Of a DNA stretch of 64,000 bases, positions 30,901-47,145 are shown in pieces. The notes beneath the pieces were generated by a model, which was not told where the DNA came from, did no database searches, and saw only the letters and a program-made list of their open reading frames with translations. Source of the stretch: a virus; IMG/VR virus record IMGVR_UViG_3300045988_103014, positions 77,780-141,779 of that record. One strand, 5' to 3'. How positions within the stretch are numbered: the first letter of the stretch is position 1; each line of letters opens with the position of its first letter. A program made the translations under genes and the position numbers.

Positions 30901-33739
30901 CTAAATTACGATTATTATTAGTATAAGGGAATAAATTTCCATCAACTGCAATTTGTTTATTAAAGTAAAACTGTGAACAAGTAGTTTGGAAATGTGTCCA
31001 AGCACTATTTAGATTACCAACCTCTAAAACATATCCATAATTCTGAATTTTAACCGCACCAAGAATTCTCCATCTTTCATTATCATGTTGTGCAACCCAA
31101 TTACCATTGGAATCACAAGGTCCAAGGTAATTTTCATTACTAACACCATTATAACCAATGCCACCCCAATACGAACCGCTTTTGTTCCATCTTAAAGCTG
31201 GATAAACAGTAGAGTTAAGGTTAATATACATTGGACTCGTTGTATATAAACTAGTACCTGTAATACCCAAATTTACGATTGGAATAGACGTAAAATTAGC
31301 AACAGTAATATCTGCACTTGTCTCAATTTTTGTTTGAGTAAAATCATAGCCAGGAGCTGTATCATGTACGAGCATGTTAGAAATTTGTATGCCCCTATAA
31401 TGGTCTGTTCCAGCATAAACGTAGAAAATTGCAGGATTAGCAATGTCATAATAAATTTTTACTGTTGACATATTGATACCAACAGCAATACCTCTTACGT
31501 TATTTACAATCCATTTTTTATCAGTACCATTCCAAGAAAAGTAATAAGCTAATTGGATTTTTCCACTTTCACCACTACTATAAGGACCTCCAACCGTGAT
31601 GTCCATAGAAATCATAAACCATGCATTACTACCACTAGAAAATCCATTGTAAGGCAAAGTAACCTTATAGAATTTACTACCAGCAGCAGAACCTATCCAA
31701 GGATAACTACGATTGCTTTGACGAATTGCAGTACCAAGATTGATATTTCTCCATCTTAATGATGTTGTTCCTAGGTCATAGATATTATCTACATTAGAAC
31801 GCACGTGAGACTGTACGATTTCTAATGTACCTTGTGTCTGCGCACTATTGGCAGCAAACACGCTCTTATCTGCGATTCCTAAACTAACTGTCTTAGAACT
31901 TGCAGTATATTTTAAACCAGCCCATTTATCATAATCCCAATTATCTGCACCAAAACGGATTGAAGTATTATTTTGAAAAATAACTTCTCCTCCGATGGCA
32001 TTAACATAAGTGGAACCAATTAAAATACCTTTATGACTAACGCCATATGAGGTTGTAATTAAATCGTTAAAATAACTTGTACCATTAACAAAGAACTGAT
32101 AACCAACATTTTCTCCGTTAACACCAAGCTTATTAGAAATTCTCCAGTTACCATAAGTATCTGAACGTAACATACCAGTAGTCGAAGAATTGCTGCCACT
32201 GTGAGTAATATAAAAATTACCATCATTATTACTTATATGCCAAGATTTTGCATTATATCCTGAATCTCCAACCGCACCCATAACAATCATTGACCAGTTA
32301 TCTGGGGCGAATCCAATTCTTAAACCCTGTCTTGCATTGTCACTCGTAGGCTTAATTCTAACACAACCATTAAAAGTTTTATCGCCGCTTAATTCTTGGA
32401 TTGTATCTTTAGCTCCTGCAGTAATGACACCAGCATTAGTAGTACTAGCAACAGGCATGTTGATTGAAACTGTATTACCATTACCAATGGTATATTTTAA
32501 TTGCGGTTGAGTCGCATGATTTACATATTCAATGGCTTTAATATATGTTGAATAAATAGTTTGTCCCGCGCTATCTTGAGTCGCTTTTGTTGCAGTTGAT
32601 GCATTACCATCAAGTGCGGCAACGATATGACCATTTTCTAAAAATTTAATCTGTGCGGTTGCGCTATTAGCACCAGCATTATAGTTCGCATCAGTGCAAT
32701 ATGAAAATATTAAATCATCTGTATAAGAAGCGTGGTCATAGGCTCCTATATCCCACGAACCATTAGTTGTTTTTATTGAAATCGCAGGAGAATATCCATG
32801 AATAGAAGTCATTCGTACCAACGCTGAAGTACGGCCGTTAATCCATGAGGTGCTAACTCCATCTTTAATTAACTGTCCCGTAAAAGTCTTATTGCCAGCA
32901 ATAGTCTGTGCGCCTGTGGTAATTAAACCTGCGGTCGTTGTACTTGCATTCGGAATTGTAATCAAATCGCCGGCATCACTACCATTACCGTATTTACCTC
33001 TAAAAGTAAATTGTGTTCCATTAGAAGTAATCTGCTTAATCTCGTGAATATAAGTGGCACGAATAGAAGTTGTATCGCCTTTTGCTTTATCTGCGTAGTT
33101 TGCATTTTCAATAGTACCATCTGTAAAAGCAATTTGTTTCCAGGGTTTTGCAGTATCAATTACTGCATTACTAAAACTACGATAATAAATATTTCCATTA
33201 GAAGAAAAACCTAATTGAGAATCATAATTACCACTATATCTACTAATTTGTAAAATGCCATTTGAATTATCTGTTGCTGGCATATTACCTGTAGCATCAG
33301 AATATGTATTATAATAATACTTAATTTTTCCTGCGCCCGGGTCGTCAGTTGGTAAAGTTTGTACTTGCGCACCGTTTATCAAGTCTGCACTTAATGCAGA
33401 GCCGCCACAACTTCCAGAAGCCGCAAAATGTAAATCAACATCATTAGATGAACCATTACCTTTGGTTACTGTAAATACATAATGATTTGTTGTTTTATCA
33501 TCATTTTGTTTTTTTGCTACGGCAGCAACATATTTTGAACGAATCGTTTCATTTGTCGCATCACCGTCAGCTCGTGTAGCCACATCAGCTTTATCTGCGT
33601 GCGCGCCGATGCGGACACGCTTTGATGCCGAAACATCGACATACATGTTACCCTCGTCAGTGGTAACATATGCCCAACCCTCCGTTTTAGTAGCCGGAAG
33701 GTTTTTTTCTTGACCTTTCAATATTTTGAATAAAGCCAT
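27920..33739 (-). CDS. Giant tail fibre / receptor-binding protein with HylP-like N-terminal anchor and internal repeats
   Basis: 1939 aa from the ATG at 33739 (SD GAGGT 7 nt upstream). The ORF-track GTG is at 33754. N-terminus MALFKILKGQEKNLPATKTEGWAYVTTDEGNMYVDV. Repeated A-S-T-T-x-A-G-(L/V)-I-T motifs. Gly/Ser/Thr/Asn/Trp/Tyr-rich. Confidence 0.7.
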   Translation of the reverse strand: MALFKILKGQEKNLPATKTEGWAYVTTDEGNMYVDVSASKRVRIGAHADKADVATRADGDATNETIRSKYVAAVAKKQNDDKTTNHYVFTVTKGNGSSNDVDLHFAASGSCGGSALSADLINGAQVQTLPTDDPGAGKIKYYYNTYSDATGNMPATDNSNGILQISRYSGNYDSQLGFSSNGNIYYRSFSNAVIDTAKPWKQIAFTDGTIENANYADKAKGDTTSIRATYIHEIKQITSNGTQFTFRGKYGNGSDAGDLITIPNASTTTAGLITTGAQTIAGNKTFTGQLIKDGVSTSWINGRTSALVRMTSIHGYSPAISIKTTNGSWDIGAYDHASYTDDLIFSYCTDANYNAGANSATAQIKFLENGHIVAALDGNASTATKATQDSAGQTIYSTYIKAIEYVNHATQPQLKYTIGNGNTVSINMPVASTTNAGVITAGAKDTIQELSGDKTFNGCVRIKPTSDNARQGLRIGFAPDNWSMIVMGAVGDSGYNAKSWHISNNDGNFYITHSGSNSSTTGMLRSDTYGNWRISNKLGVNGENVGYQFFVNGTSYFNDLITTSYGVSHKGILIGSTYVNAIGGEVIFQNNTSIRFGADNWDYDKWAGLKYTASSKTVSLGIADKSVFAANSAQTQGTLEIVQSHVRSNVDNIYDLGTTSLRWRNINLGTAIRQSNRSYPWIGSAAGSKFYKVTLPYNGFSSGSNAWFMISMDITVGGPYSSGESGKIQLAYYFSWNGTDKKWIVNNVRGIAVGINMSTVKIYYDIANPAIFYVYAGTDHYRGIQISNMLVHDTAPGYDFTQTKIETSADITVANFTSIPIVNLGITGTSLYTTSPMYINLNSTVYPALRWNKSGSYWGGIGYNGVSNENYLGPCDSNGNWVAQHDNERWRILGAVKIQNYGYVLEVGNLNSAWTHFQTTCSQFYFNKQIAVDGNLFPYTNNNRNLGLSSNYWNNTYSQWIMANVAGSSTDGGITLYGNKDTSYGIFFRGTGNMGTHGSVTADWATYFTMSNTTGRGWVFRNTGTGNVASISAQGHMTVNSSIGINGTNVAYRLYANGESWIHGQLWTQNLLPESNNAWVNGNGSYFWSSMSTRWLHANRGGSSTDGGITLYSDSSSYGIMFRGTGNLGTHGWVTADWATYFTMNDQNNRGWVFRRHNNRNVFSIDSSGFTWADGPLRAEATGKDGFVTYPRGGHYTTTTSSITGYLRIQLPVYRSNTMMKFIVDIYNYATNTSVSYAISGYNYYDGVWHSYTAECLSHHGQDKQNLTVAFGELNNKSAVMIGSASTVWSYPQVQIRDVVIGFSNWGYKYWNNADWVIDFSTAPIGNVSSTVSGTDNIKTSRGQFDQLVVINDASNNEYDGLAYFRTYSSNDWGIIMDKNSTYDYGLDVRTSTGAAYGIRSNGQMIINSTCGNYREGIRLRGADGTWNTIILGATADSGTNANAWSIHRKSDNNFCISRNSSDGANGLVMTATGMGLGTTAPSYRLHVNGTSYFSGTSNVCKIFNSANYGNSSGVTFTQLAAHNASSCGMIYAATDNPTGGAQWVHAWSQTWNHGVTSSWVSQLALGVGAGAGMWYRTTSGNIEGRAWTRVLDTSNFTSYTDPRYLRYSGWWTSGSGQNVNDATGMIFAYSNHGLPGSWGVVTTLDYATNSAYKHQIYGDGWNNEMYFRTRSSDRGGWNAWKRLVYNSGTWGISITGNAATATTASGANVLNINNTKGLSNCLQYLQTSFPAGDIDSPGSSWYHVLKFNHGQGDAYYKRLMAFSFWGRNNVYTATAEGNGTTSAWSKFWLQGDSVTGAVWNDYAECRRADSQEPGYVMTEVGDDSLVKTTQRLQHFAGIVSDTWGFSQGETDEAKTNIAVAGRVLAYPYQDRDNYKPGDCVCAAPGGKVDIMTREEVLMYPDRIVGTVSCVPDYEEWGGGELADRDPVKVNGRIWIKVR
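30200..31000 (-). repeat. Two tandem copies of an approx. 130-aa protein repeat inside the 1939-aa fibre gene
   Basis: GSSTDGGITLY(G/S)...G(I/M)(F/M)FRGTGN(M/L)GTHG(S/W)VTADWATYFTM...RGWVFR occurs twice about 134 aa apart. The DNA copies have diverged. Confidence 0.6.
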
Positions 33740-33860
33740 ATTTTTTAACCTCACTCTCTAAGCTTTTGGTTATACACCACTCGGCTTTAAAATTTTTTGT
33801 TTTTAATCTCTTATATATATAGATTTTACTATTAGTTTTTTAACATATCTTGGCCAATAA

Positions 33861-33898: not shown

Positions 33899-33906
33899 AT
33901 GGGTTT

Positions 33907-34617
33907 TTATACTTCGTACCAATAAACCTGAAACTCTCTTTCAATAGCTGCTAATCTATCGTAGATTGCATCTAAGGTGTCTGATTCGTACGCATATTTA
34001 TCACTTAAAGCGTAATAAGACTCACGAATGTCAAAGTCCAATTCGCTCTTTACGAAATTTCCTTCTGAATTCTTAACATAGTATACACCAGGCTGATATA
34101 ACTCAGGAGTAAGCTCAACTCGATAATAATCAAGAACATTCATACCGTTTAAGACGGTACTTGTAGAGGAAAGGGTATTAAGATTATAAACGAGTTTCTT
34201 ACCTGTTACATCGGTTTTGAAGAAACGAATTGAGTAGGTGACTTCACCTGCGGCCTTCGTTGCCTCACCCTCAATGCACCAAGGAATAATCATCTTGTTC
34301 TCTTCTCTGAATGTAACAACATCATAATAAGGAACAACATAAAAACGACCTTCTTGTGCGGCATTGATGTACTGGATTACACAGCACGTTTCAGCCAAAT
34401 CTTGGTTATCAAAATATCTATCAACGATGAAGAACACCGTTTCTGAGTTGTGGTCGAAACGCACACTCAGAAACTCTGGTGCTTCAATCGTTCTAGAATT
34501 CAAATCTATGTTATAGATACTCTCAGACTTAGGGAGTAAAGCAGCTAACTGTGGTACGTTTCCGCCATCAGTTAAAGCGAACAGATTGGCGAAAAATTCT
34601 TCACTTGAAGTAACCAT
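33907..34617 (-). CDS. Tail fibre / baseplate-associated protein, paralogous to the N-terminal domain of the upstream 675-aa protein
   Basis: 236 aa. SD AAGGAG 9 nt before the ATG. Shares the FIVDR(F/Y)(Y/F)D...KMII.W...AG...RFF domain with the gene at 34644-36671. Confidence 0.55.
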   Translation of the reverse strand: MVTSSEEFFANLFALTDGGNVPQLAALLPKSESIYNIDLNSRTIEAPEFLSVRFDHNSETVFFIVDRYFDNQDLAETCCVIQYINAAQEGRFYVVPYYDVVTFREENKMIIPWCIEGEATKAAGEVTYSIRFFKTDVTGKKLVYNLNTLSSTSTVLNGMNVLDYYRVELTPELYQPGVYYVKNSEGNFVKSELDFDIRESYYALSDKYAYESDTLDAIYDRLAAIEREFQVYWYEV

Positions 34618-34643: not shown

Positions 34644-36671
34644 TTATACTACGTAGAAGATTTCACTAACAACTGAATCAGTTGTTTCATTCTTATGGTT
34701 AGTTAACTGACAGTAATACTTACCAGTCTTGGTAGGAACGAATGTTGACTTAGTCTCTCCTTCAAGAGCTGTATCACCTTCAATGACAGCAATATCATCA
34801 GTAGTTTGATACCACTGATAAGTTACTTCATCACTAATGTTCCAAGTATTCTTCCAGTTCTCCTCTAAAGTAACATGAATCTGAGTTGTCAAGGCAGTTC
34901 CATTAGAGAAGTCGACCTTGGTTTCGTCAGTGTCTTTATGAGGATACTCGATAACTGGCTTAACAGCTGCGTAAGATACGCGGCACTCTGAACTACCAGT
35001 CTTAACATACTTAAGGTTCTTATGATTGTAAACAACAACCATATACTTACCTTCAACTCCCTTAGGAGCTGCCATAAGTTCAGCTGTATTAGTAAGAGTT
35101 AATGAAGCCTCTCCAGCTCCCTCAATTCTAATCCAATCAGCATCCTCAATAGTATGCTCTACACCATCTTCATCAAGTTCATAATTAACTTTATTACCAG
35201 TAGACTCGTTACCAGTAGTAGGGTCAATTGCTCTCTTGTACCAAACGTAGATAAGCTCACCCTCTTTGGTTCCGTTTGCCTCTGGGTTTGAAACTTCAAC
35301 AGAAAGAGTTACTGAAGAAGCATTTGTGTCCTCTGTTACTACGTTAATTCCTAAGATTTCTCTTGGAGTTAAGTTAATATCAATAGTAGCAGGAGTAGGC
35401 ATTGGAATGATACAGATAACTGACTTCTGTTCTGCCATATTCTTACCACTTAAACGGTTTACTGCAACTGCATTGTAAGAACCAACGCGAGTGGCGACAC
35501 AAAGAGCAACTCTCTCATAGAATGTTGCCTGTCCAGCTGCGTAGTCATCTTCTGGAAGAGGTTCAGCATTAAAATACTCTTCGCCCTCTGCAGTAGTCTT
35601 TTTCTTATAAAGAACCTTCTTAGACTCTCTTAAAGCTCCGATGTGGTCAGCATCAGTGTTAACTTCTCTAAACTCAGTTCTTACTAATGCTCCAGTAGGG
35701 TCATCAGCACCACCAAGGTTAGGAGTCTGCTCATTTCCGTTATGGTCAACGAATCTCCAGTAGTAAGAAATGATACCACCATCGTTTGAACGAGCCTGTA
35801 CTTCGAGAGGATAAATCTCTGTGTTGTTTGGTAACTCGGTCTTGTAAAGCTTGTTCTCGATAAGGTCCTTATACTCGATAAGGTTTGTAATGTAAGTAGG
35901 TCTTTCTGCCTTTGCAACACCTGCAAGAGTAGTCTGGCTATTTACAATACGATTAGTTACAGCCTCATTGATTTCATCCTCAATCATGTATTTACCATTA
36001 CCAAAGATAAAGTCTAATGAAGACTTGATAGTTGCGGTCTGTGTTAAAGTAGACCAGCTATACTTAATTGTGCTTAAGTTCTTGTCGTCCCATTGGAAGA
36101 AACGAAGCGCAAATCTTAAAGTACCAGCGTACTTTGTAATATCGCTAGAAAGTGCCCAACCGATAATCATCTTATTTGGCTGACTCTCAATATCAACTAC
36201 CCAAGGAGTAGAAACACCAGATTCATTATTTGCGTTTGTCCACTGAATGTAGATGTCGCAAGTATCTAAGTCTGTGATATCATAGAAACGGTCAACGATG
36301 AAGTAAACGATTTCAGCGTACTTGTCACCCTGTACAGCAAAACCATTAGCCTGGAATGATGCAGGCATTGTAATTGCACGAGAATTACCATCTACACGAA
36401 GCACATCTTCATCAAGAGGAAGCATGGTATATCTACGTCCCTGAGAACGAAGCATATCATATGACTTTTCAGATGCGCCAAGCTGAATTAAATCTGGCAA
36501 ATATGAGAAATACTGCTCAATGGTTGTAATAGGGTCTTCAGCGATTAGAAGTCCTGTGTCGTCCTTTTCGCCTGTGCTCTGCAATACGCCCTCTTTAATA
36601 AGAGCCTGTGTAGCACTAGAGAACAATACAGAATACTTATCAGCGTTGGAACTATTTACATAAGTAATCAT
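34644..36671 (-). CDS. Tail fibre / receptor-binding-like protein with C-terminal Ig-like repeats
   Basis: 675 aa. N-terminal domain paralogous to the 236-aa protein. C-terminal beta-rich T/Y/W-rich repeats. Confidence 0.55.
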   Translation of the reverse strand: MITYVNSSNADKYSVLFSSATQALIKEGVLQSTGEKDDTGLLIAEDPITTIEQYFSYLPDLIQLGASEKSYDMLRSQGRRYTMLPLDEDVLRVDGNSRAITMPASFQANGFAVQGDKYAEIVYFIVDRFYDITDLDTCDIYIQWTNANNESGVSTPWVVDIESQPNKMIIGWALSSDITKYAGTLRFALRFFQWDDKNLSTIKYSWSTLTQTATIKSSLDFIFGNGKYMIEDEINEAVTNRIVNSQTTLAGVAKAERPTYITNLIEYKDLIENKLYKTELPNNTEIYPLEVQARSNDGGIISYYWRFVDHNGNEQTPNLGGADDPTGALVRTEFREVNTDADHIGALRESKKVLYKKKTTAEGEEYFNAEPLPEDDYAAGQATFYERVALCVATRVGSYNAVAVNRLSGKNMAEQKSVICIIPMPTPATIDINLTPREILGINVVTEDTNASSVTLSVEVSNPEANGTKEGELIYVWYKRAIDPTTGNESTGNKVNYELDEDGVEHTIEDADWIRIEGAGEASLTLTNTAELMAAPKGVEGKYMVVVYNHKNLKYVKTGSSECRVSYAAVKPVIEYPHKDTDETKVDFSNGTALTTQIHVTLEENWKNTWNISDEVTYQWYQTTDDIAVIEGDTALEGETKSTFVPTKTGKYYCQLTNHKNETTDSVVSEIFYVV

Positions 36672-37007: not shown

Positions 37008-40000
37008 TTATGAAGTAACGATAATGTTATGGTCTACAGCTTCACTTAACTGGAAGTTTACGCTTTGACCACTCTTACCGAATGTCAGACTTGAGAAGTA
37101 GCTCTGTCGGTCAGCAGTACAATAAATATCTAAGTGCTGAAGTGCCTTATCATTATTGTTTTCAACAACATTAGTGTCAACAAATGTTAATTGAGATGGG
37201 TCACCAGGACCTCCAATCGTCAATTTATTCATTTGACCTTTAGTATAAGAGAATACTGAAGTACCTAATCTCTTAATACCGCCTCCAAGAGTAAGATTAA
37301 AACTGGTCTGACCTGTTGGATTAGCTAATGCTTGGTTAAATGCATTGTCTTGAATACGATAAACCTTACCACCAATGGCTGTTACAACCAATGATGAACA
37401 TCTGGTAAAGCAACTTGCATCTAAAGTTCTTAAAGACTCAGGGAAGTCAACATGCTTCAAACGAGTACAACCTTGGAAGGCTGACATTCTAATAGCACGA
37501 ATTCGACAGTCATTTAACTCATCATGTACAAAATATACATGAGTAACATCACTCTGGTTTACAAATCCTTCATAAGCAACGCCTAAAACAGATTTTCCAC
37601 CATGAGCAACTGGTAAAGTAACTTTACCACTTAATTTAACTCCTGGTTTAACCTGAATTTCAAAACCATCCTCGTTGTAACTTGGATTGTCTGTATCTTC
37701 ATAGTAAGTAGGAACAAACTCAAAGTACTTATCATCTGTAGCGGCATCATATACAGATTCTTTTACGAATACTGCATAGAAAGTGTTGTCTACAGTAGCC
37801 TGAATTGAAGCCACGTTTACTGTCTTAGCCTTGCTTGCGCTTGCGGCTAATACTGCGTTTCTATCCTGCGTCCAACCTAAGAATCTATATCTTTCATCAT
37901 CTTCAAGTGAAGACTCATCAAGACTAGGAACGATATTTGGAACAGGGATGAAGTCTCCGAAAAGAACTCCTTCACGAGCAACCTCAGTAAAGTTGCCAGC
38001 CATACCGCTCATGAACTTCATTTGGAATTCATGTCGAGTAAATACAGCATAGAAAACATAATCGTGAACTGTTGTATCAGTAACCTTAGTAGCGTCGCTT
38101 GTATTCCAATCACCTTCTGTAATAATACCACTATCATCATTAGTTGTTGACCAACCATGGAAATCGTAGTTATCTCTCTTAGCCTCATACTTAGCATAAG
38201 GATTTAAGAAACGATTTCTCGTACTAATTGAAGAAGAAGGTAATACCTGCTTATCAATAATAGTATAAGTTCCATCTGGCTCAAGCTGCATGAATGTAGC
38301 TGTATAACCAGGATTTACGTTCTTGAAGTGGATATCAAGTTTAGCACCAGGAATAGCACTATCTGCTAATAATGTGTTACGAATTGTATCTTCATCAACA
38401 GCTGTGTCGTTATCTACATAAACACTACCTGTTAAAGTAGGTACTGAAAGACCAGTAGAAGTAGTGTTCTTAAACTGTGCATCTGCAATAAAGTCAAGTA
38501 ACATCTGGATGTCAGTAATCTTGTGAGAATCTGCCTCTAACTCTGGTAAGTAATCATAAACCTCACCATTTAAGATGTCTGTCTGCCAGTTCGAATCTGC
38601 TCCAGTGTACTTCTTAAATCCGTAGTGACCATCATCTGTATAATACTGATGATTGTTGATTTTCATCACACCTGGGTCAAGTTTCTTATAAGGTGACCAT
38701 TCTACGTCAGTAAGTGATAACTTCAAGTCTTTCTGACCTGCACTCTCACCGAACTTGAAGATTTTATACAACTTGTTAACCAAGTCATATGAACCGTAGC
38801 CTAAGCTACCCCCAGCTAATTCTAACTGAGCCAAGTTACATGAAGTAGTATTAGGAACAACCTCTTTCACATTTGTAAGACCTTCAATATACAATCCCTT
38901 TCTTGCAACCCATTCACCAGTAGCTGGGTAATAAGTTGAATAATAAGTATTTGTCTCTGGGTCTTCATATGGTGTAGTAGATTCATCTTTTCTTGCCTTA
39001 GCTGCAGCAACCATTGCAGGCATATCGAAATCAAGAACTGTGTCAAGATTTGCGGCTTCAACTAACTTAAGTCCTTGTAATGAACTTGGCAAGTATAATG
39101 TATCAAGTGCAACACCATCTGCGAACTTAACAGATAAAATATTAGAACGTACAGCCTTAAATACTTGCAACTTTTCAGAAGAAGTAAAGTCGTAGTTCAA
39201 AATACCAGTAGTATCAAGTTCTAGGCCCGACATGTTAACTTCCTTAAGCAATGGCTTACCCATAACTGAGTTAGTTGTTGAGTCGAAGTCAGGTGACTTC
39301 AAGCCTTTGTTGAAGAAGAATGGATGGTCATTACCAAGTAACAGCTTAGAAACATGTGGACAGTTCTTAGCGTAAAACTCAGTCCAATATAATCTACTGA
39401 TATCACCGATACTCTCAAGAGTATCTGCACCATATAAGTAAATCAATGACTCTGATAAGTTAGGAGAGTTCATGATACCTTGCTTCTGAGCTTCTGGCAA
39501 TTCGTAACGAACTATTGTTCCAGTATACTCTTTTGAAGGCAAGGCGTTAACGTCTACACCTAAAGTAACATATGATTTCTGATATGGCTTTAAGTCTACC
39601 CAGAACTCTGCGTCTAAGTAGTTGGATTTAATTCTATTACCTTGCTCATCCAACTTACCATCAGGTGTGTAGTATGGAACTACATCAAAATCAGGAGCTG
39701 AAGAATCCGCAATAGCAATCCAGTGGTCGGAGAATTTATCTTTCTTATTGGCACCGATACGACCATGAATTTCAGTACCATCACCACGAGCATAGTTACC
39801 TTGTGAGAACCAAGAGTCAATGAAGTTCAAACGTCTAGCAAGGAACTGCTGTCTTGAAAGACTTCTGTTACCCTGTAATGCATAGAAGTAAGTACCATTA
39901 TCATCAACGCTTACGCCGCCACCCTGGTTCTGATAACCGATTAAGTTGTTACAAATACTTAAATACTTGAACTGCTCATCCATATTAAACATACACAGAG

Positions 40001-43000
40001 GTCTGTCGCCACGCATCTGAATTTCGCCAGTTTCATCAGGATTTGCCAAGTACCACTTCTCAATGTGGTCTACATTGTAAAGAGGACCCTTTCCTTTGTA
40101 ACGACTATTCTGCATTTCGTGTCTAAGCTCTTTATATTTACCTTCAATTAACTCACGGAAACACTCAAATAAGTTATTCCATAAGACACTATCTGAAGTA
40201 GAGAATGTACCGTCGATAGTTGCGTTCTCTGAGTAATCGAATGAAGGAATACCTGTATTGTTGATACCCAACTGAGTATCCATATCGTAGAAAATTGGAT
40301 ACCAGATATATTCTCCACCTTCCTTTTGAGGACCCCAAGAGGCCATCATACAGTTCTTACCACGAGAGTCGTAGCAAAGAAGAACTTCGGTAATGATGAA
40401 GTATACTAAACAGTACTCTAAGTCAAAGTGTTCAGTGAACTCTTTTGTAAACTTAGCTTTTCTGTATTCTCTGGTTTCATATTCATATTTAATGCCATCG
40501 TAGTCAATTACTTTTGGAACGCCGATATATACGCCCTCAGATAGAACAGTGTTTCCACTTTCTTCATCAACTACTGTTGGAACAGTTCCCTTAATCTCAT
40601 CTTCGTACTCATCATAGTAAGTTTTTGAAGCGTCATAAGACTGTCCTGCGGCTGATACATAATCCATAATCTTGCGGGCTGGCTTACCAGCAAGTCTCTC
40701 AGCCTCTGTAGGTACTGCGTCTAAACAAGTAGACCATACCCACTGATTTGCTTTCTCCCAGTTACCCATAATTTTGAATAACTCTTTTGAACGGAAATCT
40801 GTACTTGCTAAATCAATAGCAGAGTAATCAGCAAGCAAATCTTCATAAACGTCTGCATTAGTTACAGGGTCGTAAATGTAATCTAAGAAGTCGCCATCTT
40901 TACTGTAACGATACTCATAAGAGTCTGCTACGAATGGACAAGAATTCTTTGAGTTCATTTCACGAACTTTCTTTGTAACTTGAGTTGCAACGCCATCAAC
41001 TTCTTCTGTAACGGTTTTATCAACCCACATATCGAAGCTCAATTTATGTCTTCCAAGAGGGTCACGGAATGAGCAATATCCACGAGCGTTATCTGAGAAC
41101 TCCCAGCACTCTGCGAACTTACTAGCTACGGTTTCAACACCAGCTTTTACCTTACCCCACTTAGCACTAATCTTTTTGCTTGACTTGAAGCAATAAGTTT
41201 CATCAGAACCCTTATCAGTAAGCATGTTATAACGTCCAATGAACTGATAATCATTATCTGTTTCACCATACTTCCAGAATGCCATAACAGGGAAACCTTG
41301 AACGTTTGTTCTTAGGTCTTTGGTGTTATCGAACTTATAAGGCTTATACTCTGGGATATAATACTTATTAGGCTCGTAAGGCTTTTCTTCTGTAAAGGAT
41401 GCCTTCTTATACTCGTCCTTTTCTGCATTATAAGTATAATAAGTCATATTCTTTGTATCTGCTGTTGGAGTAGTACAAATCTTATAACTCAACTTATTGA
41501 ATGCTCCAGCCTCATTATAGTCATCGATTGGATGCTTTGTATAAGAGCTGTGAACAAGGTTTGCAAGACCCATGTTGTATGTACCAGAAGACTCCATAAA
41601 GTCAATCTTCATAGTAAACTTTGTAGTACCAACAGAGTAATTGTTGTAGTAGAAGAAGTCTAAGTGACACTTCTCTAACGCATCTGCGTCACCAGCAATA
41701 CCTGCAGCGAACAACTCCTTAAAAGGACCCTGGTTCATATACATTAAGATTGTTTCGTTACCCTCATTATCAAGTCCCTTAGTCTTTGCCTTGTAGTTAC
41801 GTCTTGGGTAGAACTCGGAAGAAGTACCCTGAACGGCAAGGTTAACACCTCTATGAATACTTGTAAATGATGGACAGTGATGCTTGTAATAATACTGAGC
41901 GAAAGTTAAACCTTCTTTAGTAGCCTCAGATTTCTGGGCTTCGTTCATTGCGTTACCCCAGTCTTCCAAGTTACCATTCTTTGCGGCTTGGTCAAGAGTA
42001 GGGTTTACAAATGTAAATCCAACTGTCTTCTTATCCGCCTTAGAATAAGGAAGTTTTGTATCTCTGCTACCAGTATCAAAGATTACATAAGGCATCAATA
42101 ATGAATCCACGTGCTCAAGGTCATCGTTCCAATCTCTTACCGCCTTATAATTCAACTGATATTCACGAGTATCCTGATTATAAGAAATCAATTGAGTTGT
42201 ATGGTCATAATCAAGAACGCTAGCATGGTCAACTGAATAGTTGATAAGAATATCACGCATTGACAATGGAGCTGTGTAAATTCTGAACTTGTACAAGTCT
42301 ACATCACAGTATTCAGAGTTGAATATTACTGCTGGACTCTTGATTTCAAGAGGACCATCATCTGTGATTTTACCTACTGCAGTAAGTACGCCCTGTAAGT
42401 ACATATACAATCTATGGTCATTGTAGTTGAATACGATGGTTAAATTCATCATCTGGTCTTCAACATACTTTACATTCAATGTGTTCTGTGCACTTGAGAA
42501 GAATCCGTCCTGAGGTCCTAAACAGAAACCACGCTTGTTAGTATCGTAGTATCTACAGAATGGTGTATCACCAGAAACCAAACGAGTAATATCTGAGAAA
42601 GCCTCAGAAATATCATCGTAAGTAATAGGTGAACCAGGCTTAGATAATTCGGTACGTAAGAAGTTATCGTAGTTATCGAATCCCTTAGGGTCATTCATCT
42701 GTGCAACGAACTTATTCCAGTACTCTTGGTCGTTTGCATAACGAGTATACTCACGAATTAAGTTCTGGTAGTTCTGAACATTTCTAATCTTAAATTGGAA
42801 CTCAAATGTACAAGACTGCTGCTTTGCGTTTTGTGGATTGTTCAAAATCATATTTCCAATAGGGAATGAAACTGAAGCACCATTACTAACTCTTAAGCAA
42901 GTATCATTGTTATCATCAAGAATCCAACCATTGTTATACCAGTTAAAGCCTGTAAATGTTGCACTGAAAGGTTGAACATCAGGCATATCCTCGTTGTGGT

Positions 43001-44435
43001 AAGACCAAGAAGCTCTCTTTGACTCAGGCTCATTGTTTGAACGACCAGCAGCGTCAAATGACAATAACAACTGAGTTTCTTCAACAAGACTTAAATCACG
43101 AGTAGGGTCTTTTGCAACTGAGAACTTAATATCACGAGAAACGTACTTAATATCGCCCTCTTCAGGGTTCTTCTTCATAACACGAAGTGAGTAGCTATTC
43201 TCGATATCCAAAGTAGCATCTGTAATCTGCCAAATAGAGAATTTGGTAGCACCAGTATTCTCTAAACGAGAACCGATTTCTGCAATACCTTTAACGAAGA
43301 TAACTTCCTTATCTCCTCCATCTGGGTCGTACACTCTATATGGGATTTTAATAGGGTCATAACTAAAATATTCAGAATCATAATTACCCAACCAAATGAT
43401 AGGGTCTGTGCCGCCGTTATTTACAGCAACTTCAAATTCAAGTGGCTCTTTAACACCAACTCCACGGTCTCCATCAATACTTTGTGAAAGATTAACTCCA
43501 ATAGTATGATAACCATGAGACACGTTCTTGAATGTACATTTTTGCTCACCAGTTGCGCTCTTGGTTAAGTTCTGAGATTCAACCAAAACTCCATCTAAGT
43601 AGAAGTCAAGGATTTTCTCAACATTACCAGATACGTTACAATAGTAAGTAAAAGTACCATTCTGAGGTGATACATTTGAGAATTTCTCACTTTCATACAA
43701 TAGTAATTCTACAGTTGTAACTTCATATGTGATAGTTCTACTTTTACCACTGTTTACGCCGGTTGCATATAGTGAAAGAGTGGAACCAGTAGATTCACGT
43801 AAACGAGAACCAAATTCAAACTCTTTTTCTACATTGTTTGTAACTTTAAATGTACCTGAGTCGTAAACAACTCCAGTAGCAGTAACACTTAAAGACCAGC
43901 TAATAGTCAATTCACCTTCATCCATGTATGAACCATCTGAGTAGGTTGCTGATGTTACAGTGAAGTTTGCGGCCATCTTCTGACCATTAACTAAGCTTAC
44001 GGTTGGAAGTGCTTTACCTTTAATGGCAATAGCCTTACCCGCGGTTGTACCACCGCCACCGCCGCCAGTTCCACTAACAGCAATAATCATACAAAGCATT
44101 GTCTGCTCTTCTGCGTTCACTTCTAAGATACGGAAAAAGGTGCCGTCAGAATTGATAATCAAACCGTCAACCTGAGGTAGCATATCTTCTGACTCTAAAT
44201 CATCGAAGCTCAAAGTATATGTACCATATTCGTCTGGCTCTAAGTCCTCAGCCTCTGCATAGATAAATGGTGAACCACTGCCGCCGACAGAAACACGCTT
44301 ACCATTTGCATCCATATACATTTTACCTGTATCTGTTGCAATAAGAAGTGCTCCTTCAACAACATTGAGTTTCAATAAATCTTGCTCAGCTCCACGAATA
44401 GGTTTTAATGAGACATTAGTTTTTTGACTATTCAA
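37008..44435 (-). CDS. Giant (2475 aa) tail fibre / receptor-binding protein with HylP-like N-terminal anchor, Gly7 linker and a central CotH-like region
   Basis: TTG start at 44435 with SD AAGGAG 8 nt upstream and no in-frame ATG nearby. N-terminus ...LKPIRGAEQDLLKLNVVEGALLIATDTGKMYMDANGKRVSVGG. GTGGGGGGTTAGK linker. Region around nt 40323-40380 encodes CYDSRGKNCMMASWGPQKE...IWYPIFYDMDTQLG. Confidence 0.7.
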   Translation of the reverse strand: MNSQKTNVSLKPIRGAEQDLLKLNVVEGALLIATDTGKMYMDANGKRVSVGGSGSPFIYAEAEDLEPDEYGTYTLSFDDLESEDMLPQVDGLIINSDGTFFRILEVNAEEQTMLCMIIAVSGTGGGGGGTTAGKAIAIKGKALPTVSLVNGQKMAANFTVTSATYSDGSYMDEGELTISWSLSVTATGVVYDSGTFKVTNNVEKEFEFGSRLRESTGSTLSLYATGVNSGKSRTITYEVTTVELLLYESEKFSNVSPQNGTFTYYCNVSGNVEKILDFYLDGVLVESQNLTKSATGEQKCTFKNVSHGYHTIGVNLSQSIDGDRGVGVKEPLEFEVAVNNGGTDPIIWLGNYDSEYFSYDPIKIPYRVYDPDGGDKEVIFVKGIAEIGSRLENTGATKFSIWQITDATLDIENSYSLRVMKKNPEEGDIKYVSRDIKFSVAKDPTRDLSLVEETQLLLSFDAAGRSNNEPESKRASWSYHNEDMPDVQPFSATFTGFNWYNNGWILDDNNDTCLRVSNGASVSFPIGNMILNNPQNAKQQSCTFEFQFKIRNVQNYQNLIREYTRYANDQEYWNKFVAQMNDPKGFDNYDNFLRTELSKPGSPITYDDISEAFSDITRLVSGDTPFCRYYDTNKRGFCLGPQDGFFSSAQNTLNVKYVEDQMMNLTIVFNYNDHRLYMYLQGVLTAVGKITDDGPLEIKSPAVIFNSEYCDVDLYKFRIYTAPLSMRDILINYSVDHASVLDYDHTTQLISYNQDTREYQLNYKAVRDWNDDLEHVDSLLMPYVIFDTGSRDTKLPYSKADKKTVGFTFVNPTLDQAAKNGNLEDWGNAMNEAQKSEATKEGLTFAQYYYKHHCPSFTSIHRGVNLAVQGTSSEFYPRRNYKAKTKGLDNEGNETILMYMNQGPFKELFAAGIAGDADALEKCHLDFFYYNNYSVGTTKFTMKIDFMESSGTYNMGLANLVHSSYTKHPIDDYNEAGAFNKLSYKICTTPTADTKNMTYYTYNAEKDEYKKASFTEEKPYEPNKYYIPEYKPYKFDNTKDLRTNVQGFPVMAFWKYGETDNDYQFIGRYNMLTDKGSDETYCFKSSKKISAKWGKVKAGVETVASKFAECWEFSDNARGYCSFRDPLGRHKLSFDMWVDKTVTEEVDGVATQVTKKVREMNSKNSCPFVADSYEYRYSKDGDFLDYIYDPVTNADVYEDLLADYSAIDLASTDFRSKELFKIMGNWEKANQWVWSTCLDAVPTEAERLAGKPARKIMDYVSAAGQSYDASKTYYDEYEDEIKGTVPTVVDEESGNTVLSEGVYIGVPKVIDYDGIKYEYETREYRKAKFTKEFTEHFDLEYCLVYFIITEVLLCYDSRGKNCMMASWGPQKEGGEYIWYPIFYDMDTQLGINNTGIPSFDYSENATIDGTFSTSDSVLWNNLFECFRELIEGKYKELRHEMQNSRYKGKGPLYNVDHIEKWYLANPDETGEIQMRGDRPLCMFNMDEQFKYLSICNNLIGYQNQGGGVSVDDNGTYFYALQGNRSLSRQQFLARRLNFIDSWFSQGNYARGDGTEIHGRIGANKKDKFSDHWIAIADSSAPDFDVVPYYTPDGKLDEQGNRIKSNYLDAEFWVDLKPYQKSYVTLGVDVNALPSKEYTGTIVRYELPEAQKQGIMNSPNLSESLIYLYGADTLESIGDISRLYWTEFYAKNCPHVSKLLLGNDHPFFFNKGLKSPDFDSTTNSVMGKPLLKEVNMSGLELDTTGILNYDFTSSEKLQVFKAVRSNILSVKFADGVALDTLYLPSSLQGLKLVEAANLDTVLDFDMPAMVAAAKARKDESTTPYEDPETNTYYSTYYPATGEWVARKGLYIEGLTNVKEVVPNTTSCNLAQLELAGGSLGYGSYDLVNKLYKIFKFGESAGQKDLKLSLTDVEWSPYKKLDPGVMKINNHQYYTDDGHYGFKKYTGADSNWQTDILNGEVYDYLPELEADSHKITDIQMLLDFIADAQFKNTTSTGLSVPTLTGSVYVDNDTAVDEDTIRNTLLADSAIPGAKLDIHFKNVNPGYTATFMQLEPDGTYTIIDKQVLPSSSISTRNRFLNPYAKYEAKRDNYDFHGWSTTNDDSGIITEGDWNTSDATKVTDTTVHDYVFYAVFTRHEFQMKFMSGMAGNFTEVAREGVLFGDFIPVPNIVPSLDESSLEDDERYRFLGWTQDRNAVLAASASKAKTVNVASIQATVDNTFYAVFVKESVYDAATDDKYFEFVPTYYEDTDNPSYNEDGFEIQVKPGVKLSGKVTLPVAHGGKSVLGVAYEGFVNQSDVTHVYFVHDELNDCRIRAIRMSAFQGCTRLKHVDFPESLRTLDASCFTRCSSLVVTAIGGKVYRIQDNAFNQALANPTGQTSFNLTLGGGIKRLGTSVFSYTKGQMNKLTIGGPGDPSQLTFVDTNVVENNNDKALQHLDIYCTADRQSYFSSLTFGKSGQSVNFQLSEAVDHNIIVTS

Positions 44436-44461
44436 TGTGTTTACTCCTTTCTATCTTTTCT

Positions 44462-44504
44462 GAAATGAAAAAAACGGGAAGAAGAGGCAATTCTCTCCTT
44501 CCCG
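44462..44504 (-). terminator. Rho-independent terminator after the 590-aa gene, only about 30 nt upstream of the RBS of the 2475-aa gene
   Basis: CGGGAAGAAGAGGCAATTCTCTCCTTCCCG (imperfect stem) followed by a U7 run on the minus strand. Confidence 0.65.
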
Positions 44505-44562
44505 ATAAATTTCCTCTATACTAGAGTAAAAACTATAATAAGCTATTTAATAGCCTTTGTCC

Positions 44563-46335
44563 TTATGCAGGGTCAAAAGAACCCCAAACCATATCAACAG
44601 CTACGCTTGTACTCTTACCATCACTACTGTTAGTAGTATTTACCTGTAAAGAGTTGGAAGCAATAGCAAATACTGCATTCGCAGAAGTGGTTTGTCCTTT
44701 TGCAGTGGCAAAACCAATTGTGCTAGTAACTGTTGCAACAGTTTTTGCATTATTAGTGGTACCAACAACCTTAGTACCGTCTTGGTCCATGTGACCATTA
44801 GTGTCTGTTAATTTATACTTCTTAACATTAACACCCTTAATATGTCCTGCGGCATCACGGATAATTGATTCAACAACTTGAATCTGTAAATCGCTGCCTT
44901 GCTGCTGTTCAACATAATCATTGGACTGAGTATAATTATAAGCAGTTGTGTCGCCTTTGGCAGTGTTTGCTGTTTTAGCAGTGCCATCCAAGTGAGCATG
45001 CGTAATTGTAACCTTTGCTGTTGTAGAGCCAGCTGGGTCTGCTGCGGCAGATACGGAAATATTGTCATCTCCTGCGAATGTCACTATACCAGCATCTTGT
45101 CCAGTACTACCCTGAATAGTAAAGCCAGTGGCATTTGGAACAACTGTATAATGAGTATCAGTCTGAGCGTCATCTCCAGAAGGAACTACATCAATAGTTA
45201 AAGTGGTAGGGTCAATCTTACCAGTATTAGGGATTTCAGTACCGTTAATAATAAACATATCACCCTTTTTACCAGTGTAAGTTGTACCCTTACTATTGGT
45301 ATATTCATAAGTTGCACCAGCAATTAAGAATGTATCACCAAGTTCCAACTGAGTAACAATTGTACTCAAAGATGTAACAGAGCCACCAGTACCAAGAGTA
45401 CCACGATATCTCATCGCATCCAAAGTCTTCATCTTAGTATCAATTTCAGTCTTTGAATATACTGGTAAAGTAACTGTACCATTGACAATCTTAGCTGTTT
45501 CGTAAAATGCCTGTTCTCCACCAACTTGGAAAATAGGATTTAATTGTGCAGTACCTTCATGACCTGCACTATCCTTAACAGTTACATATAAACCTTCTTT
45601 ATTTGTGCTGGTATCTTCAGCATTGGCGCCGTTACCTGCGGACACGCTCTCAAGAATAGTATCTTTTACGCTTAGCTCCAATGTATCATTGGCAGATTTA
45701 CGCATTGAAAGATTACCATCTTTAGATTTAATCTTAAATGAGCTATCATTGTCAGTGTTCTCTGAAGTTAAAGAAATAGTTGCTTCTTTAGTATCAGAAT
45801 CATATCCGACTCCTAGTTCATAAGTGTCACCTGTGATAGTAACATCTTTACCAGAACTAGTTACCTCAAGACCATTCGCACCCTTAATAGTAAATGTGTC
45901 ATCATAAGATGCGCCGCCGGTACCAGTAACCTTATCAATTTCTGTAATAGTATACTTAATAGATGCTGTATTATCTGTTACGGTAACATCATATTTTACA
46001 TTACTAATCGCAGTATTCGTATTAGGGTTAATCTGTACCCATTTTTGACCATTGAATACACATAAGATATTCTTGTCTTTATCTGAGCCATCTACATAGT
46101 AGAACTGACCTGTGTGCTGACGTTTCTGCTCATTGGTGCTTACCTCTGGTAACTGTCCAAGGTTATTAACGATTGTAATACCTTCATTGACAGGAACCGC
46201 ATCGCCATTTGCAATACCAACATACAATCTGTGACTATCGCTAGTCATATAGAAGGTTCCATCAGTGGCGGTCTTGCTTGTTCTTAACGCATCTAGATTG
46301 CTCTGTAGACCACGCTTAAATAAAACATTAGCCAT
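44563..46335 (-). CDS. Tail fibre protein with HylP-like N-terminal anchor
   Basis: 590 aa. SD GGAGGA. N-terminus MANVLFKRGLQSNLDALRTSKTATDGTFYMTSDSHRLYVGIANGD. Thr/Gly-rich beta sequence. Confidence 0.65.
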   Translation of the reverse strand: MANVLFKRGLQSNLDALRTSKTATDGTFYMTSDSHRLYVGIANGDAVPVNEGITIVNNLGQLPEVSTNEQKRQHTGQFYYVDGSDKDKNILCVFNGQKWVQINPNTNTAISNVKYDVTVTDNTASIKYTITEIDKVTGTGGASYDDTFTIKGANGLEVTSSGKDVTITGDTYELGVGYDSDTKEATISLTSENTDNDSSFKIKSKDGNLSMRKSANDTLELSVKDTILESVSAGNGANAEDTSTNKEGLYVTVKDSAGHEGTAQLNPIFQVGGEQAFYETAKIVNGTVTLPVYSKTEIDTKMKTLDAMRYRGTLGTGGSVTSLSTIVTQLELGDTFLIAGATYEYTNSKGTTYTGKKGDMFIINGTEIPNTGKIDPTTLTIDVVPSGDDAQTDTHYTVVPNATGFTIQGSTGQDAGIVTFAGDDNISVSAAADPAGSTTAKVTITHAHLDGTAKTANTAKGDTTAYNYTQSNDYVEQQQGSDLQIQVVESIIRDAAGHIKGVNVKKYKLTDTNGHMDQDGTKVVGTTNNAKTVATVTSTIGFATAKGQTTSANAVFAIASNSLQVNTTNSSDGKSTSVAVDMVWGSFDPA

Positions 46336-46341
46336 GTATTA

Positions 46342-47145
46342 TTATCCTCCTATCTCGTCGAGTGTTACTGGATTGTATTCTACTCCAGTGGCTTCATTGA
46401 TTTCATGCCATACTAATCTTTCATAAATATTAGTAAGTTCTGTCTTCACGTCTTTCATAGCAAATTCAAGATTTCCTACTCGAGTTTCAAGACCTGGCTG
46501 ATAATCTCCACCATCTAAGGAGCCTGTGTCGAACACTGTACCTTCAATAGTGTTCAATCTCTTGTTAAAATCGGTAAAGTCAGGATTCTTTTCGAACCAA
46601 TCCATTAAATCCTTAAAGTCATCCATACTACCGACGTAATCTTCAAATACACTCTCTGCAATTTCTCTTGCAGACATTCCATCGTCGTCACCAACAATAG
46701 TCTGTACAACAGCAGTTAAGTCATATAGACCTGAACTCCATGTACCATTACCCAAAAGAACGAAGTCCTCTTGGCCTGCTAATGGAACTGGTACTAAACC
46801 AGATTTTCCATCATCTTCATCGGTGGCTCCGACCATCACAGGAGCGATAAGTGCTGCAATATCTGCAAGTGTCTTATCAACCCATTTATCCTGTTCAGCG
46901 TCATACATTAAAACTGAATTGGCTGCAACATTATTGGATAAAAGAACATCTGTCAAATCGCCTAAAGAAGTGACTGAAATATTACTTGAGCCACCGGCAA
47001 TAATTTTAGTTCCTAAATATAGAATACCTCTATCGGCATCATTTTCAGAAATAAAATATAATGTGTCGGGGTCTTTGTGCTGAAGGTTTTCATACGCGGT
47101 TGGAGTACCACGCGTAAATCGTACATAATTAGGTACTGTAGCCAT
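46342..47145 (-). CDS. Short tail-fibre-like protein with HylP-like N-terminal anchor
   Basis: 267 aa. SD GGAGGG. N-terminus MATVPNYVRFTRGTPTAYENLQHKDPDTLYFISENDADRGILYLG. Confidence 0.6.
   Translation of the reverse strand: MATVPNYVRFTRGTPTAYENLQHKDPDTLYFISENDADRGILYLGTKIIAGGSSNISVTSLGDLTDVLLSNNVAANSVLMYDAEQDKWVDKTLADIAALIAPVMVGATDEDDGKSGLVPVPLAGQEDFVLLGNGTWSSGLYDLTAVVQTIVGDDDGMSAREIAESVFEDYVGSMDDFKDLMDWFEKNPDFTDFNKRLNTIEGTVFDTGSLDGGDYQPGLETRVGNLEFAMKDVKTELTNIYERLVWHEINEATGVEYNPVTLDEIGG

What the first reader, a model, noticed from the sequence alone, without database searches (positions are those of the whole stretch)
33590..47145. Four fibre genes share a HylP-like N-terminal anchor motif
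The N-termini of the 267-aa gene (MATVPNYVRFTRGTPTAYENLQHKDPDTLYFISENDADRGILYLG), the 590-aa gene (LFKRGLQSNLDALRTSKTATDGTFYMTSDSHRLYVGIANGD), the 2475-aa gene (LKPIRGAEQDLLKLNVVEGALLIATDTGKMYMDANGKRVSVGG) and the 1939-aa gene (LFKILKGQEKNLPATKTEGWAYVTTDEGNMYVDVSASKRVRIG) all fit the pattern F-K/R-x-G...L...EG-x-hy-hy-x-T-D-T/E-G-x-hy-Y-hy-G. From memory this is the conserved virion-attachment N-terminus of streptococcal phage hyaluronidase HylP and many Firmicutes phage fibres. It implies that all four dock to the same kind of site and that their distal parts are exchangeable cargo.
Basis: partly seen in the sequence, partly recalled or inferred. Interest (0 to 1): 0.6.

Follow-up and report, generated by a model that had tools for sequence, protein, structure and literature searches.

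The report
Shared N-terminal plug on phage fibres
Four tail-fibre-like genes of a large uncultured gut phage start with the same small, roughly 45-residue domain, a distant relative of the N-terminal cap of phage hyaluronidase HylP and the Bordetella phage receptor-binding protein Mtd; it most likely fixes each fibre to the tail, which is a familiar design in an undescribed branch of a known domain family.

Summary
A profile built only from outside sequences finds exactly three ORFs in the window: the 590-aa (E 5.8e-26), 1939-aa (1.6e-18) and 2475-aa (1e-6) genes. Profile-profile P-values among their families are 1e-9 to 1e-14. The 267-aa gene is more divergent. It has a 4-residue insert and Pfam places its family in PF24243, but with a 62-sequence alignment it joins the others (hhalign 95%, P 3e-8), and its model shows the same strand-helix-strand-strand order.

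The HylP/Mtd_N link is real but below threshold. None of the four reaches Pfam's cut-off. However, 15 of 70 full-length relatives of the 590-aa gene hit Mtd_N in register, their consensus scores 21.7 bits (cut-off 26.3), and one protein with three tandem copies matches both profiles.

The 1826-aa protein is not a fifth member; it has its own conserved N-terminus.

"Exchangeable cargo" applies only to the 1939-aa type, which is mosaic. The 267/590/2475 genes form a conserved, collinear, syntenic trio in related 50-200 kb contigs. Their N-termini are the best-conserved segment of the 267-aa and 590-aa genes.

The docking function is inferred, not shown. This is an undescribed branch of a known domain doing a familiar job: modest interest.

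The parts
46996..47145 (-). N-terminal domain (aa 1-50) of the 267-aa protein (gene 46342-47145). It is the divergent member, with a PF24243-type motif YVRFTRGTPTAYENL..KDPDTLYFI..GILYLG.
   Evidence: PF24243 matches at 15.3-18.2 bits, below the 23.7 cut-off. 25 of 28 homologues match it, and the family consensus scores 25.0 bits. hhalign to the merged profile of the other three gives 95%, P 3.2e-8. The AF2 model shows E9-13, H15-20, E28-32, E41-44, E47-50.
46168..46335 (-). N-terminal domain (aa 1-56) of the 590-aa protein (gene 44563-46335): MANVLFKRG...DGTFYMTSDSHRLYVG. A second conserved sub-domain follows up to about aa 105 (46021-46167).
   Evidence: The family HMM scores 5.8e-26. The AF2 model has pLDDT 79-93 over the first 50 residues, with E6-9, H11-20, E28-31, E37-40, E46-48, E53-56. 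Relatives hit Mtd_N in register.
44280..44435 (-). N-terminal domain (about aa 8-52) of the 2475-aa protein (gene 37008-44435): SLKPIRGAEQDL...EGALLIATDTGKMYMD. The protein has a BspA-type leucine-rich repeat (LRR) region near its C-terminus.
   Evidence: The family HMM scores 1e-6. hhalign of the 2475 type gives P 1.3e-11 against the 590 type and 1.2e-14 against the 1939 type. LRR_5 scores 5.4e-10 at aa 2312-2406.
33590..33739 (-). N-terminal domain (aa 1-50) of the 1939-aa fibre (gene 27920-33739): MALFKILKGQEKNL...EGWAYVTTDEGNMYVD.
   Evidence: The family HMM scores 1.6e-18. Relatives keep aa 1-50 and the last ~150 aa but have different middles. PHROG 20242 'tail fiber protein' scores 3.8e-25.
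47245..52725 (-). The 1826-aa fibre. It is NOT a member; it has a different conserved N-terminus (MSFYGNVRNTARTQFYFDRIYPNR..GRYVLVEYE). It is listed because it heads the conserved gene order 1826 / 267 / 590 / 2475.
   Evidence: hhalign probability is below 1% against all four families and Mtd_N. It carries a Phage_fiber_2 repeat at aa 1709-1747 (2.4e-15). Synteny is shown.

Best explanation
Each of the four proteins begins with a 45-50-residue strand-helix-strand-strand domain. Together these domains form an undescribed, divergent branch of the superfamily that includes the N-terminal cap of phage hyaluronidase HylP and of the Bordetella phage receptor-binding protein Mtd (Pfam Mtd_N). That superfamily apparently also includes PF24243.

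By analogy with Mtd and HylP, each protein is taken to be a homotrimer. The three N-terminal domains would pack into a small cap at the end nearest the virion. This cap would be the plug that fixes each fibre to a socket on the baseplate or on another fibre, while the long distal parts (Ig-like beta-sandwiches, BspA-type LRR, and others) reach the host.

Shown here: homology among the four; the sub-threshold link to Mtd_N; position at the extreme N-terminus; and conserved gene order in the clade. The N-terminus is also the best-conserved segment of the 267-aa and 590-aa genes, but not consistently of the 2475-aa gene.

Inferred: trimerisation, the docking role, and a shared type of socket.
For: Homology:
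-, as given in the observation check.
- The domain defines a large family: 3,526 clusters (50% identity) at E <= 1e-3 and 489 at E <= 1e-10. In nearly all of the 150 best hits it sits at residues 1-55 of the protein.

Link to Mtd_N:
- 15 of 70 relatives of the 590-aa gene hit Mtd_N; the next most frequent family has 3.
- The hits are in register.
- For the 590-type consensus, Mtd_N is the only Pfam hit at E <= 10 (2e-4).
- P0051, with three tandem copies, scores 86 bits on Mtd_N and 79 bits on the family profile.
- hhalign of the 590 type against 90 bona fide Mtd_N proteins gives 74%, P 2.7e-5, in register.
- Foldseek against viral models returns a 'Hyaluronidase' of an uncultured siphovirus at E 1.1e-5.

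Constraint:
- In orthologue pairs the first 45-50 residues are the most conserved block: 590-aa gene 51-69% in nine of ten pairs against 22-43% in the distal blocks; 267-aa gene 54-78% against 23-50% at the C-terminus.

Context:
- The genes sit among tail genes.
- The order 1826 / 267 / 590 / 2475 recurs in relatives down to about 40% identity.

Literature:
- Mtd trimers sit at the ends of tail fibres (PMC2408619).
- The Mtd N-terminal beta-prism 'presumably attaches' it to the fibre (PMC10743442).
- Small N-terminal domains generally connect receptor-binding proteins to the tail (PMC5380687).
Against: - No window protein reaches Pfam's Mtd_N cut-off.
- The 2475 and 1939 types show no direct signal to Mtd_N (hhalign P 0.02-0.04; 1 of 21 in Pfam).
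- Profiles of these N-termini do not retrieve HylP or Mtd from PDB sequences.
- The 2475-aa N-terminus is not consistently its best-conserved block.
- No docking partner was identified, and no oligomer model was made.
- A docking role has not been demonstrated experimentally for the Mtd_N domain itself in any paper I could read.
Confidence: 0.6

Rival explanations
1. The domain is a trimerisation or folding nucleus (a cap that registers the three chains) rather than a docking plug. Attachment to the virion would use other surfaces.
Confidence: 0.2
2. The N-terminal domains of different proteins co-assemble, either as hetero-oligomers or stacked cap on cap. The adjacent 267, 590 and 2475 products would then form one branched fibre complex instead of four fibres docking independently.
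For: The 267-, 590- and 2475-type genes are adjacent, and their order is kept in relatives down to ~40% identity. The 267 and 590 types share not only the first ~45 residues but a second sub-domain as well, 78 aligned columns in all. The 267-aa protein is short, and its C-terminal half is predicted helical, as an adaptor might be.
Against: Identity between the paralogous N-termini is only about 25-35%, which is low for chains that must pack into one heterotrimer. Nothing was computed on complexes.
Confidence: 0.12
3. The resemblance is a generic beta-hairpin motif (D/E-G-x-hy-Y ... G-x-hy-Y) that arises by convergence, and has nothing to do with HylP/Mtd.
For: Small profiles of these N-termini hit designed beta-propeller proteins (Cake, Bagel) through the same DGxxY...GxxY hairpin. 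The direct Mtd_N signals are all below threshold.
Against: Profile-profile P-values are 1e-9 to 1e-14 among three families and 3e-8 for the fourth, and the permutation control was never reached. The matches to Mtd_N are collinear over the whole 37-position model and concentrate on that one family out of 24,736.
Confidence: 0.06

Closest known systems
Mtd_N (Pfam PF18454): the N-terminal domain of Bordetella phage BPP-1 Mtd (PDB 1yu0) and of streptococcal prophage hyaluronidases HylP1-3 (PDB 2yvv, 2c3f, 2dp5). NCBI names it 'hyaluronate lyase N-terminal domain'.
   Same: It sits at the extreme N-terminus of trimeric phage fibre or receptor-binding proteins. It is about 40 residues long. It shares the collinear motif hy-x-F-[KR]-R-G ... 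[DE]-G-x-hy-x-hy-x-T-D-[TS] ... hy-x-hy-G, and the predicted strand-helix-strand-strand order. Relatives of the 590-aa gene hit the model in register.
   Different: All four window proteins score below the curated cut-off. They have Y/F-rich strands (FYLT, LYVG) where Mtd_N has GE-hy-x-hy-ETDT and KIGDG. The 2475 and 1939 types are linked only through the 590 type. Four paralogous copies occur in one phage.
PF24243 (Phage_tail_C, 'Phage tail tip domain'), a 26-position Pfam model
   Same: The 267-aa family matches it (25 of 28 members; consensus 25.0 bits against a cut-off of 23.7). It covers the strand-turn-helix-strand part, FxRGTxxAYxxL..KDxDTLYFI.
   Different: Here the motif is at the N-terminus, not the C-terminus that the model's name suggests. 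The window protein itself is below the cut-off (15.3-18.2 bits). I found no paper describing this model.
[quoted passage not shown]
   Same: A small conserved N-terminal module is combined with different distal parts. One virion carries several fibres. The 1939-aa type shows module exchange at the domain boundary.
   Different: There is no sequence relationship to those modules. Three of the four genes here are conserved core genes rather than swapped cassettes. The hosts are probably gut Firmicutes, not enterobacteria (weak evidence).
Pseudomonas phage JBD30 receptor-binding protein gp54 (PDB 8rk3, annotated DUF2793 domain-containing protein)
   Same: This is a worked example of docking. [quoted passage not shown] DUF2793 is the second most frequent Pfam hit among relatives of the 590-aa gene (3 of 70).

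Membership tests
Pfam PF18454 Mtd_N | Whole-protein score at or above the curated gathering cut-off (26.3 bits) | tested here: not met
   None of the four full proteins shows an Mtd_N hit at E <= 1, and none of the four 70-aa N-termini shows one at E <= 10. The 590-type consensus scores 21.7 bits, and relatives score 15.7-22 bits. The HylP1 control scores 34.9 bits.
Pfam PF18454 Mtd_N | Remote homology detectable by profile methods, collinear over the whole model | tested here: inconclusive
   For the 590 type: 15 of 70 relatives hit in register, and hhalign gives 74%, P 2.7e-5. For the 267 type, only the RGT segment aligns (12-18 columns). The 2475 and 1939 types are not significant directly, with 1 of 21 in Pfam. 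My Mtd_N reference alignment had low diversity.
Pfam PF18454 Mtd_N | Strand-helix-strand-strand fold forming a trimeric cap (beta-prism in Mtd) | tested here: inconclusive
Pfam PF18454 Mtd_N | Location at the extreme N-terminus of a phage fibre or receptor-binding protein | tested here: met
   The domain starts within the first 16 residues in all four proteins. It occupies residues 1-55 in nearly all of the 150 best family members. The genes lie in a tail gene block.
Pfam PF24243 Phage_tail_C (for the 267-aa gene) | Score at or above the curated cut-off (23.7 bits) | tested here: not met
   The window protein scores 15.3 bits (full length) or 18.2 bits (N-terminus). Its family does belong: 25 of 28 members match, with best E 8.7e-6; the consensus scores 25.0 bits; and two homologues carry a precomputed PF24243 annotation.
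Unnamed 'MANVLFKRG / MALFKILKG / FRPVRG' N-terminal domain family (defined here) | Significant match to an HMM built from outside sequences | tested here: met
   590 aa: 5.8e-26. 1939 aa: 1.6e-18. 2475 aa: 1e-6. The 267-aa protein is not hit by this HMM; it joins only by profile-profile comparison. The 1826-aa protein is not a member.
Branched multi-tailspike systems with T4 gp10-like anchor domains (CBA120 / G7C type) | gp10-like attachment domains in the N-terminal parts of the spikes | not tested
   The Pfam and PHROG scans of these proteins returned no gp10-like family, but no dedicated comparison was made. This system is cited only as a functional analogue, from my own knowledge.

The most novel reading that the evidence does not exclude
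A single plug domain, uniting Mtd_N, PF24243 and two unassigned sub-families into one superfamily, is the standard connector of a large, entirely uncultured clade of gut phages (contigs of 50-200 kb). It lets one baseplate carry three or four different fibres, including a 2,475-residue BspA-LRR adhesin. The adjacent 267/590/2475 products would assemble cap on cap into a branched fibre.
Probability: 0.3. Interest if true: 0.45.

Novelty: new member of a known kind. Interest (0 to 1): 0.3.

Why it matters
The finding gives a handle on the adsorption apparatus of an abundant group of large gut phages that is absent from culture collections.

- The family has more than 3,500 sequence clusters, yet shows no BLAST-detectable match in 50,697 deposited phage records.
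- A profile of this domain marks fibre genes that current Pfam and PHROG models leave blank.
- The domain boundary at about residue 50 is a natural junction for swapping receptor-binding parts.
- The result suggests that Pfam Mtd_N and PF24243 belong to one superfamily.

It does not reveal a new principle. Conserved N-terminal attachment modules on otherwise variable fibres are textbook phage biology.

Tried and rejected
- **Pfam, PHROG and NCBIfam scans of the four N-termini.** Nothing useful came back except a weak PF24243 hit for the 267-aa gene. NCBIfam holds no model that recognises even HylP1.
- **Small profiles against PDB sequences.** They returned only designed beta-propellers, through a generic hairpin motif, and no HylP or Mtd.
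- **Searches of deposited phage genomes.** DNA, the 590-aa protein, a central family member and the 267-type consensus all gave no match. Close relatives of the 590-aa protein in IMG/VR were also absent; the alignment-based scan then found 52 loci.
- **Genome collection scan.** One hit only, an Oscillospiraceae MAG (metagenome-assembled genome), so these are not common prophages.
- **The 1826-aa protein as a fifth member.** Rejected.
- **P0051 as an orthologue of the 590-aa gene carrying a bona fide Mtd_N.** Rejected. Beyond the three tandem N-terminal units it shares nothing with the family, so it is only an intermediate sequence.
- **Permutation control against the Mtd_N alignment.** One shuffle gave an aberrant score of ~130 against every query. 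I treat that as an artefact.
- **Literature.** One search was wasted on 'Mtd_N', which matched 'mtDNA'. The Smith 2005 (HylP1) and Dai 2010 (BPP-1) papers are not held.


Full report
**What the window is**

The plus-strand half encodes replication genes: a PolC/DnaE-type DNA polymerase, NrdD, RecJ and helicases. The minus-strand half (24-64 kb) encodes very large tail and fibre proteins.

The exact 267-aa protein occurs on eight metagenomic contigs, the longest 194,171 bp, and several come from gut metagenomes. The DNA polymerase is about 40% identical to those of Enterococcus and SPbeta-like Bacillus phages. There are no tRNAs, and no nucleotide match to 50,697 deposited phage records for the one stretch tested (44000-52800). 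So this is a large, uncultured gut phage, probably of a Firmicutes host. The only hit in 185,579 species genomes is an Oscillospiraceae MAG (metagenome-assembled genome).

**The observation**

The four quoted N-termini are in the sequence. The 1939-aa gene starts at the ATG at 33739, which has GAGGT 8 nt upstream and matches where relatives start. The 2475-aa gene starts at a TTG with AGGAG upstream.

Pairwise BLAST already links 1939 to 2475 (35% over 46 aa) and 1939 to 590 (34% over 47 aa), but not the 267-aa gene.

A profile of the three N-termini plus metagenomic fragments was searched exhaustively against 1.84 billion representative proteins:
- 3,526 proteins matched at E <= 1e-3 and 489 at E <= 1e-10.
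- Nearly all of the 150 best matches cover residues 1-55 of the protein, most of which are about 450-800 aa long, with some of 870-1,800 aa.

An HMM rebuilt from those outside sequences alone, run on all 528 ORFs of the window, finds exactly three: 590 aa (5.8e-26), 1939 aa (1.6e-18) and 2475 aa (1e-6). The next best E is 0.72.

Separate alignments of the three sub-types match each other by hhalign at P = 1.8e-9, 1.3e-11 and 1.2e-14. Their consensus forms are:
- 590 type: MANVLFKRG..DGxFYLTTDTxRLYVG
- 1939 type: MALFKILKG..EGWAYVTTDEGNMYVD
- 2475 type: FRPVRGxE..EGYVYFATDTGKIYLD

**The 267-aa gene**

Its family (33 homologues; more from related loci) has the consensus YVKFLRGTPxAYxxL..KDxDTLYFISE....GxLYLG.

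- The family HMM above does not hit it.
- Pfam places it in another model, PF24243: 25 of 28 members match, and the consensus scores 25.0 bits against a cut-off of 23.7.
- Profile-profile comparison does connect it. Against the 590 type, P is 3.9e-5, with score 26.8 against a permuted-column null of 10.1 +/- 2.3 and maximum 18.1.
- With a 62-sequence alignment the figures are 90% (P 1.6e-6) to the 590 type and 95% (P 3.2e-8) to the merged profile of the other three. The alignment needs a 4-residue insert between the second and third strands.
- Full-length profiles of the 267 and 590 families align over 78 columns. These include a second sub-domain, NSVLMYD..KWV against NILCVFNGQKWVQ.
- AlphaFold models give the same order of elements. 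The 590-aa model has E6-9, H11-20, E28-31, E37-40, E46-48 (pLDDT 79-93 over the first 50 residues). The 267-aa model has E9-13, H15-20, E28-32, E41-44, E47-50 (pLDDT 73-79 there).

I therefore count it as a divergent fourth member.

**The proposed fifth member**

The 1826-aa protein has its own conserved N-terminus, MGFYGNITNTSRTQFQFDKIYPNR..GRYVLVEYD, seen in 20 distinct sequences. Its hhalign probability is below 1% against every family here and against Mtd_N. It is rejected.

**The link to HylP**

My remembered HylP1 and Mtd sequences were checked against the PDB and are exact (2yvv/2c3f; 1yu0). HylP1 residues 9-45 hit Pfam Mtd_N (PF18454) at 1.5e-8.

None of the four window proteins hits that model. 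The indirect evidence is as follows:
- Of 70 full-length relatives of the 590-aa gene, 15 hit Mtd_N at E <= 0.1. The next family has 3 and most others have 1.
- Ten relatives scanned one by one show the hits are at residues ~5-43 against profile positions 2-37, with E 1.5e-4 to 1.4e-2.
- For the 590-type consensus, Mtd_N is the only Pfam hit (21.7 bits, E 2e-4, cut-off 26.3).
- P0051 carries three tandem units (ALQIRRGLETNLPGSPEDGELLFATDTNRLYIGDGG). It scores 86 bits on Mtd_N and 79 bits on the family profile. It is an intermediate sequence, not an orthologue.
- hhalign of the 590 type against 90 proteins annotated PF18454 gives 74%, P 2.7e-5, in register.
- Foldseek against predicted viral structures returns a 'Hyaluronidase' of an uncultured siphovirus at E 1.1e-5, among tail-fibre proteins.

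The 2475 and 1939 types have no direct signal to Mtd_N. Profiles of these N-termini do not pull HylP or Mtd out of PDB sequences.

The fair statement is a sister branch of Mtd_N, below Pfam's threshold. Membership is shown for the superfamily rather than for the Pfam family.

**Context in relatives**

Loci carrying homologues of the 267-aa gene at 64%, 44% and 42% identity have the same gene order: about 840-1,200 aa / about 120 aa / about 1,740-1,830 aa / 267 type / 590 type / 2475 type (at least 1,500 aa, up to 2,522).

Of the 52 IMG/VR loci (contigs mostly 50-200 kb) that carry a 590-type gene, 40 have a 267-type gene upstream and many have a 2475-type gene directly downstream. One sub-group has three family-domain ORFs within 10 kb. 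So several copies of this domain on neighbouring fibre genes is a clade-wide feature.

In orthologue pairs the first 45-50 residues are the best-conserved block of two genes:
- 590-aa gene: 51-69% in nine of ten pairs, against 22-43% in the distal blocks.
- 267-aa gene: 54-78%, against 23-50% at the C-terminus.

The same holds for the unrelated N-terminus of the 1826-aa fibre. The 2475-aa N-terminus is only modestly or inconsistently better conserved.

The three syntenic genes are collinear with their orthologues over their whole length, so they are core components, not cassettes. The 1939-aa type is different. Its relatives keep residues 1-50 (up to 88% identity) and the last ~150 residues, but have different lengths (737-1,794 aa) and rearranged or unrelated middles. 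Two relatives share only the first 44-51 residues.

**Mechanism**

What is known elsewhere:
- Mtd is a pyramid-shaped trimer at the ends of the BPP-1 tail fibres (PMC2408619).
- Receptor-binding proteins in general carry a small N-terminal domain that connects them to the tail or baseplate (PMC5380687).

By analogy, I propose that each of the four proteins trimerises, that its N-terminal domains form a cap, and that this cap plugs into a socket on the baseplate or on another fibre. That is inference. No partner was identified and no complex was modelled.

The main rivals are a pure trimerisation nucleus and cap-on-cap assembly of the three adjacent gene products into one branched fibre.

**Verdict**

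The thing is a new, divergent branch of a known N-terminal fibre domain in an uncultured phage clade. It is useful for annotation and possibly for fibre engineering, but it is not a new principle.

Noticed in passing
L034, L051, L060, L016, L022 (in-frame TAG) and L029, L033 (in-frame TGA), each around locus positions 10001-11800: In several IMG/VR relatives the 590-type gene is interrupted by 1-6 in-frame TAG codons, or 4-5 TGA codons, while protein homology runs through them. This suggests stop-codon recoding in parts of this phage clade. The window itself reads cleanly with the standard bacterial code.
   Followed up: partly
window 34644-36671 (-) and 33907-34617 (-): The adjacent 675-aa and 236-aa genes share a paralogous ~140-residue domain (34% identity, E 6e-20; motif FIVDRY/F-D..DL...IQ..NA ... 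NKMII.W). No Pfam or PHROG model matches it. It is a second case of a module shared between neighbouring tail genes.
   Followed up: partly
window 47245-52725 (-): The 1826-aa fibre has its own strongly conserved N-terminus (MGFYGNITNTSRTQFQFDKIYPNR..GRYVLVEYD across 20 distinct relatives), unrelated to the Mtd_N-like domain. It also has a Phage_fiber_2 repeat at aa 1709-1747.
   Followed up: partly
window 37008-44435 (-): This is a 2,475-residue protein with a BspA-type leucine-rich repeat region near its C-terminus (LRR_5, 5.4e-10, aa 2312-2406). It matches a PHROG of unknown function (3e-48). Orthologues of 2,172-2,651 aa are conserved in relatives.
   Followed up: no
window 27920-28400 (-), C-terminal ~150 aa of the 1939-aa fibre: The last ~150 residues are kept (48-86% identity) in relatives whose middles differ. 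By eye it resembles a C-terminal intramolecular chaperone or auto-processing domain (..DYAE.. motif), but no Pfam model hit it.
   Followed up: no
window 44475-44525 (-): A G+C-rich hairpin followed by a run of T (gggaaggagagaattgcctcttcttcccgttttttt) lies about 40 bases after the stop of the 590-aa gene and before the 2475-aa gene. It is a terminator-like site inside the fibre gene block.
   Followed up: no
window 61425-63863 (-): By eye, the 812-aa protein contains about four internal repeats (..YYLQS..F....GTRLDLQNGKF.S.G..G.V.I..). It has no PHROG match at E <= 0.001.
   Followed up: no
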